Shown here one piece after another: positions 32,349 to 37,439 of a DNA stretch of 64,000 nucleotides. How positions within the stretch are numbered: position 1 is the stretch's first letter; the number at the start of each line of letters is the position of its first letter. The notes beneath the pieces are model-generated. The model was given only the letters and a program-made list of their open reading frames with translations. It searched no databases and was not told the DNA's origin. The translations under genes and the position numbers were made by a program. Origin of the DNA: a bacterium (lineage in GTDB: Bacteria > Verrucomicrobiota > Verrucomicrobiia > Limisphaerales > UBA11358); the NCBI GenBank assembly GCA_021813325.1, contig JAKALA010000016.1, positions 82 to 64,081 on the forward strand, in the 5' to 3' direction.

Positions 32349-32936
32349 TCACGCCTTCAGCCGTTTCAACCAGTCGTTGATTTCGTCCAGATCAAACCGC
32401 GCGGCGTCCCACTCGCCGCCGATCCATGCCTGGAGATGTTCGTGTTCTTCGTGCTGGGGATCCGCCAGGGCTTCCAGCATTTGGTAATAACCGCCCAGGC
32501 CGCCGCAATCGTCCGGCGGACAGGCATTCGCCCCGGCCAGGCACACCGGATGTTTAAAATCCGCGTCCGGCGGCAAAATCTTTTCAAGGACAATTTCATG
32601 TTCCCAACTGTCGCCGAAGTCATACTCGTAAATGAACTTTTTCTTCGCGGCGGGCGCAAGATCAGCCACGGTGTAATGCTTCTCGTTCAACGTCTTCTGC
32701 TGGCCCAGGCCAAAAAACTCCGGATCCGGCGTGCCGTAATACGCCTGGCCGGCGACAAACTGGTGCAAATGCGAATCCGTCCACGGCAGCACACGCTGGA
32801 TCACCTGATGCAGCCGGTTTAATTTCAGGTCCGCCCGCACCACCACCCGCCGCCAGATGGCCGGTCGCGACCATTTCAAAGTGATTTTCAATTGATACAG
32901 CGGCACGCCGCCGCCGGTTTCGTTTAGGCGAATCAT
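32349..32936 (-). CDS. PRiA4_ORF3 (MM3350-like) family protein
   Basis: YQLKITLKWSRPAIWRRVVV, WTDSHLHQF, YEYDFGDSWEHEIVLEKI and CPPDDCGGLGGYYQMLEALADPQHEEHE are all hallmark segments of the plasmid pRiA4b ORF-3-like family. Confidence 0.85.
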   Translation of the reverse strand: MIRLNETGGGVPLYQLKITLKWSRPAIWRRVVVRADLKLNRLHQVIQRVLPWTDSHLHQFVAGQAYYGTPDPEFFGLGQQKTLNEKHYTVADLAPAAKKKFIYEYDFGDSWEHEIVLEKILPPDADFKHPVCLAGANACPPDDCGGLGGYYQMLEALADPQHEEHEHLQAWIGGEWDAARFDLDEINDWLKRLKA

Positions 32937-32958: not shown

Positions 32959-33117
32959 TCATTTCAACGGCCAGCCGCCGCGCGTCTCGATGGATTTATC
33001 TATCCCGCCCATGAGCCGCCGGGCTTCCAACAGCGCCCGGATGATGCGGCCATATTCCTCCCGCTCGTCATAGCCGAGCGGGCGGCCGGTGCGGTCTTTG
33101 AGCCAACTTTTCACAAC
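32959..33117 (-). pseudogene. Relic 3' fragment (52 codons) of a second Type ISP/IIG-like enzyme C-terminal domain
   Basis: Minus-strand translation VVKSWLKDRTGRPLGYDEREEYGRIIRALLEARRLMGGIDKSIETRGGWPLK* aligns with the C-terminus of the 33862..37185 gene (...RWLNDR...YARIVYALSETERLMPEIDRAIGKHGGWPLK*). No upstream body exists. It begins directly after, and in frame with, the stop of the 243-aa ORF. Confidence 0.7.
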
Positions 33118-33849
33118 TTAAATTTCATTTTGCAACCCGTCCTTAAACATGGATGAGAAAACATCCCCAAAGCGCTGCCAGCCTTCATGCTCAAGATGCT
33201 CGAAATGATAGTAATCAAAAATGGGTGACCGGACCGTGTGCCCGCGTTTCTTTTCGGCAACATCTTTGATCAAGCCGCCAAAGGCTGCCATTAACGCTTC
33301 GTTTCGTTTGATGGTTTTAACCAGCCGGGTCTCGTCGCGGTCCGCCCAATAATCGCTTTCATCGCGCACAGCCACGTCCAGACCGGCCTTGCGGCAAAAA
33401 TCCAGCAAGCTGATGACCGTCTTATGGCAGCGGATGAAATGCGCCAGCCCATGTCGTCCTGCGAACTGCGTTTTACAAAACCAACTGAACTGCCAGTTGG
33501 CGCTGATTTTGGTCGGATGCCAGCGGTGCATGGAGCGTCCGTGCCGGCATTTCCACCGGCTGGGATAACAACACAAGGCGAGCATGAAAGGTTCACAGCC
33601 CGCGCCGATTTCAATCGGCAATATCCAACCGCCGTGGGCATGAATGGCCACCCAGCGCACGTCCAGCCCGCGCCCAATCTGGTGGAGCTTGTCGGTGACA
33701 TCCTGCCTTTTATGAGCGGGCAGCACTTCGCCCACGTTATCGCAGCCGAGATGCCGGGCGTAATCTCCGAGCACTTCCAATCGCGCCCGGACTTCTTCAT
33801 CCGTCCAGTCGGCTTGGGTGTCTAATTGATAATGGATGGTCAGGCCCAT
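33118..33849 (-). CDS. Hypothetical protein, Cys/His-rich, no family recognised
   Basis: 243-aa ORF with an ATG at 33849, 12 nt after the stop of the nuclease-methyltransferase gene. Protein-like composition with GC-rich third positions. Core HAHGGW...CCYPSRWKCRHGRSMHRWH...FIRCHKT. Confidence 0.65.
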   Translation of the reverse strand: MGLTIHYQLDTQADWTDEEVRARLEVLGDYARHLGCDNVGEVLPAHKRQDVTDKLHQIGRGLDVRWVAIHAHGGWILPIEIGAGCEPFMLALCCYPSRWKCRHGRSMHRWHPTKISANWQFSWFCKTQFAGRHGLAHFIRCHKTVISLLDFCRKAGLDVAVRDESDYWADRDETRLVKTIKRNEALMAAFGGLIKDVAEKKRGHTVRSPIFDYYHFEHLEHEGWQRFGDVFSSMFKDGLQNEI

Positions 33850-33861
33850 ATTGGTTTGGAT

Positions 33862-36800
33862 TTATTTCAGCGGCCAGCCGCCGTGTTTCCCGATGGCGCG
33901 GTCAATCTCCGGCATCAATCGTTCCGTCTCGGACAGGGCATAAACTATCCGCGCATAGGTGGTGATGTCTTCAAAGGTCAATTTCCGCTTGGGCTTGTTT
34001 TTTCCCCTGATCCAACGGTCGTTCAACCAGCGTTGCGCGGGCAAATAACCGCCCACCGGGAAATTCCAGACAGATTCCGGCACGTCTTCAAAATACTGCT
34101 TATCGTTGATCCAGACGCGGCTCTTGTCCCGGCCTTGGGCGGGCTGGTAACGCACCGAGTTGACTTCGTTGTCGCCGGGAATTGGGAAAACCGGCCCCTG
34201 GCCTGCGCCTTCATTGCGGGCGTGCAGGTTCACCAACTCGCCGCCGAGTTTGGCCAGCGTGCGGAACAATTCAAAATCCGCCGTCAAGGGCAGGCGGGGA
34301 AAATCCGCGCGGAGAAACTCCGCATAACGCTCGCGGTAGGCGGGACTGTGGAAGATGGCGTAGGCGTAATTGAAAATGAGTTCCGGCCCCACCTGCCGCT
34401 TGGACGGATTGCCCAAGCCCTCCGGCACGAACTTGACCGACAATTTTTGCTCAAACTCCTGGATGAACTCCGCGCTCAAGTTGGGCCGCCGCCCGTTGTC
34501 GTGGGCAAATAAATCGGCCTCGGGGAGTTTGCCGTTGGGGTAAAGGTAAAGCGGGAAAACTGTTCCAATGTCAAACGGGGAAACGATATCTTTGCAAACA
34601 AGTTCTTGAACCGCAAAGAAACCGTCAATTTGACCGCGCCTTGCCTGTCGTAGGCAGCATAAACCAAGATTGCCTTCCTGAATCATGTGGTGCATCAAAC
34701 TGCTGGCTGGCGTCCCAATGAAACCTTTCCCTCGTCCGCTATACCAAGTGTGGCGGACATCAAAAGGCCGATAAACAATCGGGTAGAACAAATGTTGCTT
34801 GGCATTTTCTCGCACATCGGCTTGAGCGCGTTCGATTGACCAGTCACGACTGTCGGAGCCAAGCTCGTATTTTCTTCTCAGTTCTTCGGTGTCACCAATT
34901 TTGAAATCAGCAACGACATTGTTAATTTCTTTTTCACTGAATTGAATAGAAACGCGATCTCTTTCAGTTTTGATTGCATTGCCCGACAATGGAAACAAAT
35001 CACGAACGCTCCACAATTTTCTGAATTCTTTTTCCAGCGACACATTTCTAGGAACAAAATAAAAACCAGGGGATTCGGGCTGAAGCTTTTGCCATTTTGT
35101 ATTGTCCGTGTAGTGATCATCCAGCCACTCATATTTGTCAGAGCGTCTTCCCCATAAATCCGCGTAACGCACCGTTGCCAGCTTCTTTTTGTCTTTGCCT
35201 CCCGGCAATTTCACAAAGAGCGCAATGGAAACACCCACGGTGATGTCGAACACATTGTCATCCTTGCCGCCGCCCGGTGTAGTTTCCTGCTTCTTGGCCG
35301 ACCCGTGGAGATTGACAATGTAGATTTCGTCGAAGGCCTCCAGCAAACATTCGCGCATCCGGCGGTGCGTTAGGCCGTCGAGATAAACATTGTTGGTGAT
35401 GTAGCCGATGATGCCGCTGCCGGTCTGCTCAATGCGCCATTGCGCCCAGCGGACAAACTTGATGAAGTCATCGTTGAGGTTGAGCTTCTTTTCATTCAGC
35501 CCGCGCTTGTAGTCCTCCAGCAAATTGAGAATCCAAGGGTTTTTATTCTGCTGGCCGAAATTGGAATACGGCGGGTTACCCAGCACCACCAAGACAGGTT
35601 TATGCTTTTTGACCTCGTAGGCGGAGTTGGCTTCGTCGCTCAGGGCGCGGAGTGGGCCAAGCTGTTCGCTGGTCTTTTCCAAATCTTCCAGCGTATTGGT
35701 GAGATAGACGTTCACGCGCTCATTGCCCTGCGGCTCGTAGCTCCATTGCTGGCGGAACAGCGGTTCCTCATCCATCGCGGCGAGGGCGAGGCCGAGCTTG
35801 AAATGCGCCACGGCGTAAGGCGCCATGAGCAGTTCAAATCCGAACAGGCGCGGCAGCAGATGCTCATGCACATAGCTGCCCCATTGCCCGGCGTTTTTCT
35901 TCTTCTGAAACTGCGCGCGGATGAAGTCAAGGACAGTGTAAAGAAACGTGGCGGTGCCGGTGGCCGGATCGAGGATGAGCACGCGATGCGATTCATCAAC
36001 AATCTCCTTGTCGCCTTCCTTGCGTTTGACGGTGATTTTAGAATGGTCGGCCAACCCGGCCTTGAGGCCGAACTTGTCTTTCAACAGCCGGTCAATGCTT
36101 TGGACGATGTAATTGACGACGGGTTCGGGCGTGTAATAGACGCCGCGCAATTCCCGCAGCTTGGGGTCGTAGGCTTGCAGGAAGGTTTCGTAGAAGTGAA
36201 CGACGGGGTCGCGGCGGCGGTTGCGTTTGCCGAAATCTTCCATAACCCGCGCCATGTCCGCATGGTCGAGCGTCTGGATCAAATCCTCGACGAAACCGGC
36301 AAAGGGTTCATCGTCCAGCGCCGCGCCGGTGATCTGCTCGAAGAACGTGCGAAGAAACGGATTGGTGCGGGGAATAAGTTTCTGCGCCTTTTCGCGGGTA
36401 AATTTAATCGTGGGGCTGGCGGCGCGGGCGCTGAACAAACCGTAGGTCAACGTCTGCGCGAACATGTCGGCAAACTCGGCGACGGCTGCCGCCTCCTTTT
36501 TCCGGTCGGCGTGCCCGGCGAGTTCGGGCAGGAGCGTGGCGGCAAAGGCCGCGCGCCAGTCGCGCAACTGTTGGGAAGCGTTGCCGGTGAGAAACGCGCC
36601 GACGATGATGCCGCGGATGTTGTGGGAAAGATTGGCCAGCCGGCGGGCCAGTTCCTCGGCCGACGCAATATCGAGCGGATCTTTGGTGAGAAAGCTGATG
36701 AGCAGATGCCGGGCGCGTTCCAGTTCATCGGGCGCAACCGGAACCACCTTGCCGCCGCCGGCGACCGTGCCGAGCCGGAAGATTTCCCGGCGTTTGCCTT

Positions 36801-37185
36801 CCACGAACCAGCGGAATTCCAGATAATCGGTCAAGAGCAGGTTGGCGAGCGACGGAAGGTAGCGCTCGAGCTGTTCGCTTTTCTCAACTTCGCCAAGTTC
36901 CACGCCCACATCCTTGGCTTCAACGTAACCGACAGAAAGCGTATCGCGTTTGCGGGAGATGACATAGTCGGGCGCACCGCAGGCGGAGCGCTTCGGCTCG
37001 TTGGTCGCGATGATTTTGGGTTCGAGCGTTTCCAGCAACGTCTGCAAGGCGGCGCGGTGCGTGTGTTCGGTGGCGTCGCCGCGCTTGAGGGCGCGTTCCA
37101 AGGTGCGGAGATAGTCAAGCAACGGCGAGGGCTTGCCACCACCGTAAGCGGGCGGTTCTTCGTGCAAAAAGTCAGGTTGTGTCAT
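33862..37185 (-). CDS. Single-polypeptide restriction-modification-type enzyme: N-terminal PD-(D/E)xK nuclease + gamma-class N6-adenine DNA methyltransferase + TRD + Type-ISP-like C-terminal domain (Type IIG/IIL-like, no helicase module)
   Basis: Nuclease motif GAPDYVISRKRDTLSVGYVEAKDVG. AdoMet motif ILDPATGTATFL. Catalytic VLGNPPYSNFGQ. C-terminal FPVGGYLPAQRWLNDR...GGWPLK. ATG at 37185; the track start at 37245 is TTG. Confidence 0.85.
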   Translation of the reverse strand: MTQPDFLHEEPPAYGGGKPSPLLDYLRTLERALKRGDATEHTHRAALQTLLETLEPKIIATNEPKRSACGAPDYVISRKRDTLSVGYVEAKDVGVELGEVEKSEQLERYLPSLANLLLTDYLEFRWFVEGKRREIFRLGTVAGGGKVVPVAPDELERARHLLISFLTKDPLDIASAEELARRLANLSHNIRGIIVGAFLTGNASQQLRDWRAAFAATLLPELAGHADRKKEAAAVAEFADMFAQTLTYGLFSARAASPTIKFTREKAQKLIPRTNPFLRTFFEQITGAALDDEPFAGFVEDLIQTLDHADMARVMEDFGKRNRRRDPVVHFYETFLQAYDPKLRELRGVYYTPEPVVNYIVQSIDRLLKDKFGLKAGLADHSKITVKRKEGDKEIVDESHRVLILDPATGTATFLYTVLDFIRAQFQKKKNAGQWGSYVHEHLLPRLFGFELLMAPYAVAHFKLGLALAAMDEEPLFRQQWSYEPQGNERVNVYLTNTLEDLEKTSEQLGPLRALSDEANSAYEVKKHKPVLVVLGNPPYSNFGQQNKNPWILNLLEDYKRGLNEKKLNLNDDFIKFVRWAQWRIEQTGSGIIGYITNNVYLDGLTHRRMRECLLEAFDEIYIVNLHGSAKKQETTPGGGKDDNVFDITVGVSIALFVKLPGGKDKKKLATVRYADLWGRRSDKYEWLDDHYTDNTKWQKLQPESPGFYFVPRNVSLEKEFRKLWSVRDLFPLSGNAIKTERDRVSIQFSEKEINNVVADFKIGDTEELRRKYELGSDSRDWSIERAQADVRENAKQHLFYPIVYRPFDVRHTWYSGRGKGFIGTPASSLMHHMIQEGNLGLCCLRQARRGQIDGFFAVQELVCKDIVSPFDIGTVFPLYLYPNGKLPEADLFAHDNGRRPNLSAEFIQEFEQKLSVKFVPEGLGNPSKRQVGPELIFNYAYAIFHSPAYRERYAEFLRADFPRLPLTADFELFRTLAKLGGELVNLHARNEGAGQGPVFPIPGDNEVNSVRYQPAQGRDKSRVWINDKQYFEDVPESVWNFPVGGYLPAQRWLNDRWIRGKNKPKRKLTFEDITTYARIVYALSETERLMPEIDRAIGKHGGWPLK

Positions 37186-37439
37186 GTCCCGGTTTAATCG
37201 TGTGCCCGCCAGTTGTCCAAAATGGGCAGCAGCTGCATGGCTCAAGCGAGTGTGGGCCTAAAAAACGGCATCGTCAATGGGGGTTGCTCTCCCATTGGGC
37301 CGGATTATCCGTCGTCGGCGCCCCCCCGTTTTCAGGAGCCACCGGCTAACTTTGGATTGACAAATGGCGGGAAACCGCTCCCGCCATTGGCCGCGCCGCG
37401 CTTGCAAAATCAGGCGTTTTGGGCTTTCCTTGGGCCAAG

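What the first reader, a model, noticed from the sequence alone, without database searches (positions are those of the whole stretch)
33118..33849. Orphan 243-aa Cys/His-rich ORF wedged between an RM gene and an RM-tail relic
I recognise no conserved family. The core is rich in His, Cys and Trp (HAHGGW, CCYPSRWKCRHGRSMHRWH, FCKTQFAGRHGLAHFIRCHKT), which suggests metal binding. It starts 12 nt after the RM stop, with no obvious SD. Its own stop codon (33118-33120) is followed in the same frame by 52 codons of a Type-ISP-like C-terminal tail. The gene therefore looks like cargo brought in by the event that replaced the older RM gene. Alternatively, stop-codon read-through could append that tail; the shared frame has a 1 in 3 chance of being coincidental.
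Basis: seen in the sequence. Interest (0 to 1): 0.65.

Follow-up and report, generated by a model that had tools for sequence, protein, structure and literature searches.

The report
Unknown-family gene riding on restriction enzymes
The 243-residue gene is real but not an orphan: it belongs to a large, uncharacterised protein family with no known fold that repeatedly sits just behind restriction-modification genes, and it reached this locus in a recombination that swapped the 3' end of the resident restriction gene and left that gene's old tail behind.

Summary
A 243-codon ORF (33118-33849, minus strand) starts 12 nt after a 1127-aa Type IIG restriction-methylase (RM). In the same frame it is followed by 52 codons homologous to that enzyme's C-terminal tail.

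The interpretation needs correction on four points.

1. The gene is not an orphan. There are 133 close homologues and 758 clusters at 50% identity, mostly from Verrucomicrobiota and Planctomycetota. No Pfam, NCBIfam, PADLOC or PHROG model matches. A confident AlphaFold model (pLDDT 92.6) has no significant PDB or BFVD fold match.

2. The Cys/His-rich core is lineage-specific. The family-wide conserved residues are MG(LTIHY), E86, C125-K-T-Q, C141-H142, D163-E164, R171 and F-E217-x-L-E220.

3. The order "RM, ORF, tail relic" recurs in at least 8 independent metagenomic loci. The relic has the standard tail type of this RM family (T2). RMs linked to the ORF carry a minority tail type (T1). The window's RM is a mosaic: residues 1 to about 950 resemble T2-type RMs and the end resembles T1-type RMs. 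So a segment of T1 3' end plus ORF entered a resident RM gene and displaced its own tail.

4. Read-through is not conserved: the relic is in frame in 3 of 7 loci.

Distant homologues follow other Type IIG subfamilies and AAA, HerA or SbcC-like ATPases. The function is unknown. My best guess is an enzymatic defence accessory.

The parts
33118..33849 (-). ORF243: 243-aa protein of a large uncharacterised family. Family-wide conserved residues are M1-G2, H6, Y7, E86, C125-K126-T127-Q128, C141-H142, D163-E164, R171, E217 and E220.
   Evidence: AlphaFold2 model has pLDDT 92.6 and pTM 0.86. No Pfam, NCBIfam, PADLOC or PHROG hit. No PDB or BFVD fold hit.
33850..33861 (-). 12-nt spacer between the RM stop and the ORF243 start. 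It has no Shine-Dalgarno-like motif. Close relatives have a 10-12 nt spacer.
34341..37245 (-). Resident body of the Type IIG RM gene: PD-(D/E)XK-type N-terminus, gamma-class N6-adenine methyltransferase and target-recognition region. It is closest to RMs that carry the T2-type tail.
   Evidence: Best 100-residue-window matches are T2-type RMs (P0359, P0307, P0338 and others, 0.84-0.98) up to about residue 950 of the 1107-aa annotation.
33862..34340 (-). 3' segment of the RM gene with the T1-type tail (...WIRGKNKPKRKLTFEDITTYARIVYAL...GGWPLK*). It is closest to T1-tailed RMs, including the ORF-linked P0270 and P0269. The inferred imported segment, together with ORF243, starts here. The breakpoint is approximate (residues ~900-1000).
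32959..33117 (-). T2 relic: 52 codons plus stop, homologous to the standard C-terminal tail of this RM family. It is most like the tail of full-length P0305 (73%; shared YDEREEY and LMGGID variants). dN/dS is raised against other relics (0.34-0.59).
32349..32936 (-). PRiA4_ORF3-family gene (195 aa), co-directional and 22 nt after the relic. It is not found next to ORF243 homologues elsewhere, so it is probably not part of the module.
   Evidence: PF07929, 2.2e-66. (no PRiA4 hit in any related locus).

Best explanation
ORF243 is a functional gene of a widespread, uncharacterised protein family with a confidently predicted fold that matches nothing solved. In this lineage it forms a two-gene unit with a single-polypeptide Type IIG restriction-methylase, starting 10-12 nt after the RM stop. 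Shown here: this RM family is normally a solitary gene with a 'T2' tail. ORF243-type genes occur behind a subset of RMs with the alternative 'T1' tail. The window's RM is a mosaic with a resident T2-type body and a T1-type 3' end. The 52-codon stretch after ORF243 is a T2-type tail. Inferred: a donor segment of T1-type 3' end plus ORF243 recombined into a resident T2-type RM gene. The left crossover lay inside the RM body. The right boundary lay at or in the resident tail, which was pushed downstream and is now decaying. The same architecture, with different T2 sub-alleles, recurs in other loci. This suggests the unit spreads among RM genes by homologous recombination, using the RM body and the T2 tail as arms. 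Function is inferred at low confidence. The invariant polar set (C125/H142/D163 with E86, K126, Q128, R171, E217, E220) points to an enzyme rather than a structural metal-finger protein. It recurs directly behind four different Type IIG subfamilies and behind AAA, HerA and SbcC-like ATPases. That suggests an accessory or effector component of defence modules that works with, or is triggered through, the upstream enzyme. It does not need the relic, and it is not made by read-through.
For: The family is large and conserved, and ORF243 is under purifying selection. The model has pLDDT 92.6. Foldseek against PDB and BFVD gives no E<=0.001 and TM<0.3. Profile searches of the PDB find nothing. RM lies directly upstream in the window, L004, L085/86, L087/88, L089, L090 and L091. 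A T2 relic lies downstream in the window, L085, L087, L089, L090, L091, L092, L096 and L097. Of 120 RM relatives, 96 score as T2-like and 24 as T1-like, and all ORF-linked RMs are T1. T1-tailed RMs are scattered across the body tree, and the nearest bodies to the window's RM are T2-type at about 83%. Sliding windows show the switch to T1-type relatives at about residue 950 in the window, and likewise in P0270, L087 and P0269. The relic sub-alleles match those of the nearest-body RMs. Six RMs checked without the ORF have no relic either. Among distant homologues, at least 9 of 33 close co-directional upstream genes are Type IIG RMs of other PADLOC models, and others are AAA (8 loci), HerA or SbcC-like. 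Distribution is patchy: 2 of 24 genomes of the same genus.
Against: Most of the 80 species-representative loci do not have an RM next to the gene. ORF243-type genes persist where the RM is internally deleted (L092) or absent (L093/94, L001). T1-tailed RMs also exist without the ORF. So the two genes do not strictly depend on each other. The whole RM family is highly mosaic, so the breakpoint is approximate and rests on protein, not nucleotide, comparisons. A single ancient insertion followed by gene conversion with resident RMs would give a similar picture. Homologues on cyanobacterial conjugative plasmids sit beside an ssb cluster of small genes, which fits an anti-defence or establishment role as well as a defence role.
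Confidence: 0.6

Rival explanations
1. Selfish, homing-like cassette. ORF243 would be a site-specific nuclease or recombinase of a new fold that targets DNA encoding the T2-type tail of this RM family. The linked T1 tail would be a cleavage-resistant replacement that keeps the RM intact. The cassette would drive itself into resident RM genes.
For: The unit of T1 3' end plus ORF has entered RM bodies of different lineages, leaving different T2 sub-alleles behind at the same junction region. The ORF survives after the RM decays (L092, L093, L001). Conserved acidic, His, Lys and Cys residues would suit a nuclease. Some genomes hold two copies (L074/L079, L047/L048).
Against: There is no similarity to LAGLIDADG, GIY-YIG, HNH, His-Cys-box or PD-(D/E)XK families by sequence or fold. 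True homing replaces the target rather than duplicating it. Distant homologues behind other RM types show no tail relic. T1 tails exist in five RMs without the ORF. The RM family recombines heavily anyway.
Confidence: 0.12
2. RM modulator or anti-restriction-like establishment factor. ORF243 would bind or modify the fused R-M enzyme, possibly through its C-terminal tail, to damp restriction while a newly acquired enzyme methylates the genome. On plasmids it would blunt the recipient's restriction.
For: The gene always lies immediately downstream of, and co-oriented with, single-chain R-M fusions, which cannot be regulated by separate R and M expression. It travels with the tail segment of the RM. 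Homologues on conjugative or mobilizable cyanobacterial plasmids lie next to an ssb-containing block of small genes that resembles a leading region. One family member is fused to DUF2958.
Against: There is no similarity to ArdA, KlcA, Ocr or C-proteins. The protein is not acidic (pI 7.7). It was not found in 50,697 phage records. Partners also include ATPases unrelated to RM.
Confidence: 0.15
3. The downstream 'relic' is a functional small protein of 50-90 aa, a free-standing RM-tail module translated by coupling to ORF243.
For: In L085, L087, L092 and L096 an ATG overlaps the ORF's TGA (ATGA) and opens the T2 frame. dN/dS among T2 copies of L085, L087, L091, L092 and L096 is 0.02-0.28. The window copy is open for 52 codons with a GTG 3 nt after the stop.
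Against: The low dN/dS is equally explained by recent descent from functional full-length RM tails, which the copies match at up to 98%. L087 has two in-frame stops. L097 is frameshifted, L090 is cut to 34 aa, L001 keeps 7 residues and L004 has none. The window copy shows relaxed constraint (0.34-0.59) and has changes at family-invariant positions.
Confidence: 0.12
4. Stop-codon read-through appends the tail to ORF243, giving a 296-aa fusion.
For: The relic is in the same frame in the window, L089 and L091. In L001 the ORF product actually ends in ...HGGWPLK.
Against: The frame is +2 in L085, L087, L090 and L092, so 3 of 7 in frame matches chance. The stop context is TAA-G. The L001 fusion comes from a deletion, not read-through. 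No recoding signal was seen.
Confidence: 0.03
5. Passenger gene. ORF243 has a function unrelated to restriction or defence and merely lies in a recombination-prone accessory patch.
For: Most distant homologues have no RM neighbour, and downstream neighbours are unrelated. The ORF persists without the RM.
Against: Adjacency to four different Type IIG subfamilies and to three ATPase classes typical of defence islands is far above what a random gene would show. Close relatives keep a tight 10-12 nt spacing.
Confidence: 0.15

Closest known systems
Allelic substitution and domain or segment exchange at RM loci (Furuta, Abe and Kobayashi 2010, PMC2853133; Furuta et al. 2011, PMC3077401)
   Same: RM genes change by recombination with other RM alleles. 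[quoted passage not shown]
   Different: Here the exchanged piece is the 3' tail segment plus an extra non-RM gene. The displaced resident tail remains as a diverged direct repeat (45-50% amino-acid identity), not as a near-identical 'long target duplication'. The same architecture recurs in several lineages.
Type IIG / Type ISP-like single-chain restriction-methylases (Pfam PF18135 Type_ISP_C; PADLOC REase_MTase_IIG; MmeI-like enzymes)
   Same: The upstream gene and the 52-codon relic belong to this class.
   Different: From my own knowledge, these enzymes are described as solitary genes with no accessory subunit. Here a subset carries a conserved downstream partner of unknown family. The enzyme lacks the helicase motor of true Type ISP enzymes: no helicase domain was detected.
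PrrC/RloC-type latent effectors embedded in Type I RM loci (from my own knowledge, not tested)
   Same: A non-RM gene genetically tied to an RM enzyme. This would be a precedent for a second-line effector that is held or triggered by the RM protein.
   Different: There is no sequence or fold similarity and no ATPase or anticodon-nuclease motifs. The partner is a Type IIG fusion, not a Type I complex. The analogy is functional speculation only.
Integrative elements that insert into the 3' end of a gene and supply a replacement 3' end (tRNA-gene-type integration; mentioned in PMC2853133)
   Same: The target gene stays intact because the incoming DNA carries a substitute 3' end, and the original 3' end is displaced to the far side of the insert.
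   Different: No integrase or att-like identical repeats are present. The insert is only about 1.2 kb with a single ORF. The mechanism looks like homologous recombination between diverged RM alleles.

Membership tests
Any curated protein family (Pfam-A, NCBIfam, PADLOC, PHROGs) | Significant HMM match of ORF243 or of its relatives | tested here: not met
   ORF243 matches 0 families at E<=0.1. Among 111 family members no family is shared; there are only single stray hits.
Known protein fold (PDB, BFVD) | Foldseek E<=0.001 or TM>0.5 to a solved or viral predicted structure; or a profile hit to a PDB sequence | tested here: not met
   The best PDB match has E=0.03 with TMq 0.13-0.26, and the best BFVD match E=0.027 with TMq 0.24. 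hmmsearch of A1 and A4 against the PDB finds 0 hits at E<=10. AlphaFold DB was not available.
   The highlighted stretch 93-111 is not conserved: C94 1/111, C101 3/111, H103 6/111, H108 4/111, H111 1/111. But C85 (82/111), C125 (103/111), C141 (87/111) and H142 (111/111) are conserved and could form either a metal site or a Cys-His-Asp centre with D163 (111/111). The geometry could not be inspected.
Type IIG / Type ISP C-terminal tail (relic at 32959-33117) | Homology to the last ~50 residues ending in GGWP(L/M)K | tested here: met
   PADLOC REase_MTase_IIG 1e-4 at profile positions 1032-1074 of 1096. 73% identity to the tail of full-length P0305. 96 of 120 family RMs carry this tail type.
Homing endonucleases (LAGLIDADG, GIY-YIG, HNH/His-Me, His-Cys box, PD-(D/E)XK) | Family motif or fold; insertion at a conserved target with an empty-site allele | tested here: not met
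   No Pfam or fold match. T2-type RMs without an insert exist, but the target is duplicated, not replaced, and no activity data exist.
Programmed stop-codon read-through | Downstream extension kept in frame and open in relatives | tested here: not met
   The extension is in frame 0 in 3 of 7 loci and +2 in 4. There are stops in L087 and truncations elsewhere.
Anti-restriction proteins (ArdA, KlcA/ArdB, Ocr-like DNA mimics) | HMM match; strongly acidic DNA-mimic composition | tested here: not met
   No Pfam, NCBIfam or PHROG hits. pI 7.7 with 32 acidic against 33 basic residues. Absent from phage records.
Conserved RM-accessory operon partner (two-gene system) | Same-strand adjacency to RM genes conserved across divergent homologues | tested here: met
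   All seven close loci where the upstream region is intact have the RM 10-216 nt upstream. Among homologues at 30-41% identity, at least 9 of 33 co-directional upstream genes are Type IIG enzymes of other PADLOC models, at 3-75 nt. Not universal: other partners are AAA, HerA and SbcC-like ATPases or unrelated genes.

The most novel reading that the evidence does not exclude
The ORF243 family is a new-fold enzyme that acts as a portable add-on to single-chain restriction-methylases and defence ATPases. It would be either a second-line effector or guard triggered through the RM's C-terminal tail, or a self-propagating cassette that uses the conserved RM body and the displaced T2 tail as homology arms to invade resident RM genes.
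Probability: 0.2. Interest if true: 0.8.

Novelty: new variant of a known kind. Interest (0 to 1): 0.58.

Why it matters
Type IIG restriction-methylases are treated as self-sufficient single genes. A conserved partner gene would mean these enzymes can work as two-component systems. That partner has no known fold, is spread over hundreds of sequence clusters, and also pairs with AAA, HerA and SbcC-type ATPases. It would add a candidate family to the defence-island repertoire of Verrucomicrobiota and Planctomycetota, phyla where defence biology is little studied. The locus also gives a clean example of how an accessory gene can spread between diverged alleles of a defence gene. It carries a replacement 3' end and leaves a datable relic. 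Such relics could serve as markers to trace recombination between RM alleles in metagenomes.

Tried and rejected
- Pfam, NCBIfam, PADLOC and PHROG scans of ORF243 found nothing. A Pfam scan of 111 family members gave only single stray hits.
- PDB sequence-profile searches with two alignments found nothing.
- Foldseek against the PDB and BFVD gave nothing significant. The weak hits are generic ferredoxin-like beta-alpha-beta pieces.
- tblastn against 50,697 phage records found no match.
- I searched for relics of the upstream gene's tail behind distant homologues and found none, so the relic is specific to this RM family.
- I tested whether the PRiA4_ORF3 neighbour belongs to the module. It is absent from all related loci.
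- I tested whether T1-type tails are always linked to the ORF. They are not: five T1-tailed RMs lack it.
- I looked for mobility in multi-copy genomes. L026/L030/L039 share more than 10 kb and are probably strain variants. L074/L079 share about 2.3 kb. This was inconclusive.
- I looked in the window's own genome for a second copy of the ORF or a T2-type RM that could be a gene-conversion donor. There is none.
- The promoter and terminator scan was uninformative. No minus-strand sites lie between the genes, and counts were at shuffle level.
- I considered using the second structure job for a read-through fusion. I dropped it because the tool returns no inter-residue error map, so docking could not be judged.
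Full report
**1. The observation**

The minus strand holds an ATG-to-TAA ORF of 243 codons at 33118-33849. It begins 12 nt (ATCCAAACCAAT, no Shine-Dalgarno-like motif) after the TAA of a 1127-codon ORF at 33862-37245. That upstream ORF matches Pfam Type_ISP_C (1.4e-82), N6_Mtase and Eco57I, and PADLOC REase_MTase_IIG at 5e-242. It is a single-chain Type IIG restriction-methylase with no helicase domain.

After the ORF's TAA the same frame stays open for 52 codons, VVKSWLKDR...ETRGGWPLK*, at 32959-33117. This stretch matches the extreme C-terminus of Type IIG enzymes (PADLOC 1e-4). It is 42-46% identical to the neighbouring enzyme's own tail. A PRiA4_ORF3-family gene follows 22 nt later.

**2. 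Not an orphan**

A word-indexed search found 133 homologues. They range from 79% to about 30% identity and are nearly all 215-260 aa. An exhaustive HMMER search of 1.84 billion cluster representatives found 758 clusters at E<=0.001 and 403 at E<=1e-10. Named sources are mostly Verrucomicrobiota and Planctomycetota, with some Gemmatimonadota, Cyanobacteria and others.

The gene is under purifying selection. Against L089, dN is 0.126 and dS 0.853. It is patchily distributed: only 2 of 24 genomes of the same genus hold even a distant relative. The window's own genome has a single copy.

None of Pfam, NCBIfam, PADLOC or PHROGs matches it. None matches the family at large either.

**3. Conserved residues and fold**

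Across 111 diverse members the conserved positions are as follows.

| Residue(s) | Conserved in (of 111) |
|---|---|
| M1 / G2 | 108 / 107 |
| H6 | 77 |
| Y7 | 90 |
| C85 | 82 |
| E86 | 107 |
| P96 | 99 |
| W119 | 102 |
| C125 / K126 / T127 / Q128 | 103 / 109 / 110 / 103 |
| C141 | 87 |
| H142 | 111 |
| D163 | 111 |
| E164 | 95 |
| R171 | 105 |
| E217 | 106 |
| E220 | 107 |

C94, C101, H103, H108 and H111 each occur in 6 or fewer of 111 members. HAHGGW is likewise not conserved. The conserved polar set looks like an active site. It could be a C125/H142/D163 triad or a Cys/His/carboxylate metal site. That reading is an inference, because I could not inspect coordinates.

AlphaFold2, run with a 33-sequence alignment, gives a confident model with pLDDT 92.6 and pTM 0.86. 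It has an N-terminal beta-alpha unit, a seven-strand meander, a long helix, one more strand and a helical C-terminal part.

Foldseek found nothing significant in the PDB (best E=0.03, TM<0.3) or in BFVD. Two profile searches of PDB sequences were empty. AlphaFold DB was not available, so 'no known fold' means no solved or viral-predicted fold.

**4. Recurrent architecture**

Contigs carrying close homologues (55-79% identity) show the same order.

- A ~1100-aa Type_ISP_C/N6_Mtase gene sits upstream, with a 10-12 nt spacer to the ~240-aa gene, in L085/86, L087/88, L089, L090 and L091. L004 has the same RM upstream, but its tail is frameshifted and the called stop lies 216 nt from the ORF.
- A tail-like stretch lies behind the small gene in the window, L085, L087, L089, L090, L091, L092, L096 and L097. 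It is up to 87 codons long and starts at the RM motif ...GRVWIND....
- In L001-L003 only ...HGGWPLK remains, fused to the end of the small protein, and the upstream gene is a D12 methyltransferase.
- In L092, L095/L006 and L097 the RM is reduced to its first ~185 residues. In L092 and L097 these are joined to its last 24 residues. The small gene is still intact in L092.
- In L093/94 only the last 20 codons of the RM remain upstream.

**5. Read-through**

Relative to the small gene's stop, the tail stretch is in frame 0 in the window, L089 and L091. It is in frame +2 in L085, L087, L090 and L092. That is what chance gives. L087 has two in-frame stops, L097 a frameshift and L090 an internal deletion. 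Read-through is therefore not a conserved feature.

**6. What the relic is**

I collected the 120 best relatives of the RM's C-terminal region, out of 994 at E<=1e-5. I then compared their tails.

- 96 score as 'T2-like' (...RIGRTLGYEEQAEYQRIIWALIETRRLMGEIDASIKQHGGWPLK), the same type as the relics.
- 24 score as 'T1-like' (...KKRKLxFEDIxxYARIVxAL...), the type carried by every RM that has the small gene behind it.

With the last 95 residues removed, T1-tailed RMs are scattered over the body tree (23 parsimony changes with a rough classifier). The nearest bodies to the window's RM are all T2-type (P0307, P0279, P0276, about 83%).

Sliding 100-residue windows show that the window's RM is closest to T2-type RMs (0.84-0.98) up to about residue 950. 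It is closest to T1-type RMs over the last 150-200 residues. Those T1-type relatives are P0270 (the L085 RM), P0269 (which shares a contig length of 4721 nt with small-gene homologue P0011) and P0271. The same switch appears in P0270, the L087 RM and P0269.

The relics carry three distinct T2 sub-alleles. Each matches the sub-allele of the full-length RMs whose bodies are nearest.

| Locus | Relic sub-allele | Matching full-length RMs |
|---|---|---|
| Window, L089 | YDEREEY (window relic also ..LMGGID) | P0305 (73% to the window relic), in the same body clade |
| L085 | GFIEQDEYM | P0318, P0332 and P0343, 91-94% identical over the N-terminal 200 residues |
| L087, L091, L092, L096 | YEEQAEYQ | P0330 and P0290; the L091 relic is 98% identical to P0290's tail |

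The simplest reading is that body and relic belong together, and that the T1 3' segment plus the small gene is the incomer.

This also explains the coding-like divergence of the relics. dN/dS is 0.02-0.28 among L085, L087, L091, L092 and L096, and for L091 versus L096, 23 of 28 differences are at third positions. They inherited that pattern from functional tails. The window's relic shows relaxed constraint (0.34-0.59) and has changes at otherwise invariant positions, as expected for a decaying remnant.

Six RMs without the small gene have no relic either: five T1-type and one T2-type, the latter being the nearest body P0307. The family is normally a solitary gene, and T1 tails also move by clean exchange.

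The window's genome has no other T2-type RM that could act as a conversion donor. Remnants of this RM family's 3' end are also common in related genomes, which shows high turnover.

I cannot separate repeated independent insertions from one founding event followed by homologous-recombination spread. In the second case the RM body would be the left arm and the relic the right arm. The shared junction region favours the second.

**7. A functional mini-ORF?**

In L085, L087, L092 and L096 an ATG overlapping the small gene's TGA opens the T2 frame. The window has a GTG 3 nt after the stop. This keeps a 'free tail peptide' possible. The stops, truncations and losses listed above, together with the explanation in section 6, make it the less likely reading (about 0.12).

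**8. Context of distant homologues**

I examined 80 species-representative loci. Of these, 35 have a close co-directional upstream gene, and 33 of them, after dropping two near-duplicate loci, were scanned.

- At least 9 of the 33 are Type IIG enzymes: Eco57I domain in 9, N6_Mtase in 8, MmeI_Mtase in 6. The strongest PADLOC IIG hits are to PDLC03630 (2e-303), 03604 (3e-230) and 03599 (E=0), none of them the window's best model, PDLC03610. One more is a D12 methyltransferase. Gaps are 3-75 nt.
- No tail relic follows the small gene in these loci.
- Another recurrent partner is a ~504-aa AAA ATPase (8 loci, mostly Planctomycetaceae).
- Single cases have a HerA-like or an SbcC-like ATPase.
- Downstream neighbours are unrelated.
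- The family is absent from 50,697 phage records.
- It occurs on five cyanobacterial plasmids, some of them conjugative or mobilizable. On two Gloeothece plasmids it sits beside a syntenic block of small genes, which in Gloeothece verrucosa PCC 7822 includes ssb, with HicAB next to the gene.

The adjacency to four Type IIG subfamilies is far beyond chance and argues for a functional link. The other contexts, and survival of the gene next to dead RMs, show that the link is not obligatory.

**9. Mechanism, with shown and inferred steps marked**

- Shown: a real conserved gene; no known family or fold; tight operon-like linkage to Type IIG RMs; a mosaic RM with a T1-type 3' end; the relic is a T2-type tail; no conserved read-through.
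- Inferred, moderate confidence: a segment of T1 3' end plus ORF243 recombined into a resident T2-type RM gene and displaced its tail. The architecture spreads among RM alleles by homologous recombination.
- Inferred, low confidence: the protein is an enzyme using C125/H142/D163 with surrounding carboxylates, and serves as an accessory or effector of defence modules.
- Alternatives: a homing-like selfish nuclease, an RM modulator or establishment factor, or an unrelated passenger. These are listed with odds in the rival explanations.

**10. Comparison with what is known**

Recombinational substitution at RM loci, and allelic exchange of Type IIG domains, are documented (PMC2853133). The variant here is exchange of a 3' tail segment together with an extra gene, leaving a diverged tail relic, seen repeatedly. 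I found no described accessory partner for Type IIG enzymes in two literature searches. Absence from those searches is weak evidence.

**11. Limits**

- All relatives are metagenomic.
- Recombination was analysed at the protein level.
- No coordinates or error maps were available for the model.
- AlphaFold DB was not searchable.

Noticed in passing
window 34500-35250: There is a GC trough (0.45-0.50 against ~0.57-0.60 nearby) inside the RM gene. It roughly coincides with the part of the protein that is least conserved across the family (about residues 700-850 of the 1107-aa annotation; mean identity 0.30-0.38). That part is 0.84-0.86 identical to P0307. It is probably a swapped target-recognition module, so P0307 probably shares the specificity.
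   Followed up: partly
L092 5384-5986; L095/L006 5483-5968; L097 482-1084: Three independent relatives carry the same kind of RM remnant, the first ~185 residues. In L092 and L097 these are joined to the last 24 residues. The small gene remains behind it. In L095/L006 the small gene itself is truncated at residue 67.
   Followed up: partly
L113 (G018), L114 (G011), L115 (G028), L117 (G023), L112 (G005): Isolated 3'-end remnants of this RM family (45-160 residues) lie in unrelated contexts in 5 of 40 related genomes. No ORF243 homologue is nearby. The family turns over quickly and tends to leave its tail behind.
   Followed up: partly
own genome, contig C91 3570-3809 (L120): The window's genome holds a second weak fragment of a Type ISP_C-like region (35% identity, one in-frame TAA).
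   Followed up: no
L052, L053, L054, L072, L071, L084 (upstream gene): In Planctomycetaceae the ORF243-family gene sits about 56 nt behind a conserved ~504-aa AAA ATPase (PF00004, 1e-25). This could be a separate two-gene module.
   Followed up: partly
L074 5805-8474 vs L079 5806-8137: Two contigs of one Thermoguttaceae MAG share a ~2.3-kb block (93-96% identity) that starts ~195 nt upstream of the family gene. It could be a duplication or a small mobile unit.
   Followed up: no
L085 1297-4267: Just upstream of the RM-ORF pair in L085 lie fragments of a second system (MmeI_N 146 aa, Eco57I 494 aa) and a BsuBI/PstI-type restriction gene. Downstream lie LmuB_C, MC3 and CTD7 genes. This is a dense defence island.
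   Followed up: no
P0098, P0108 (family members): Some family members carry a C-terminal CPxCG...CxxCG zinc-ribbon or rubredoxin-like extension. A group of ~380-395-aa members (P0083, P0089, P0097) has a ~150-residue insertion before the CKTQ motif.
   Followed up: no
window 33850-33864 and 33115-33120: The RM gene, ORF243 and the relic are all in one reading frame, separated only by TAA stops (RM...PLK*IQTN-MGLT... and ...NEI*VVKSW...). Relatives do not keep this arrangement (10-nt spacer in L085 and L087), so it is probably coincidence.
   Followed up: yes
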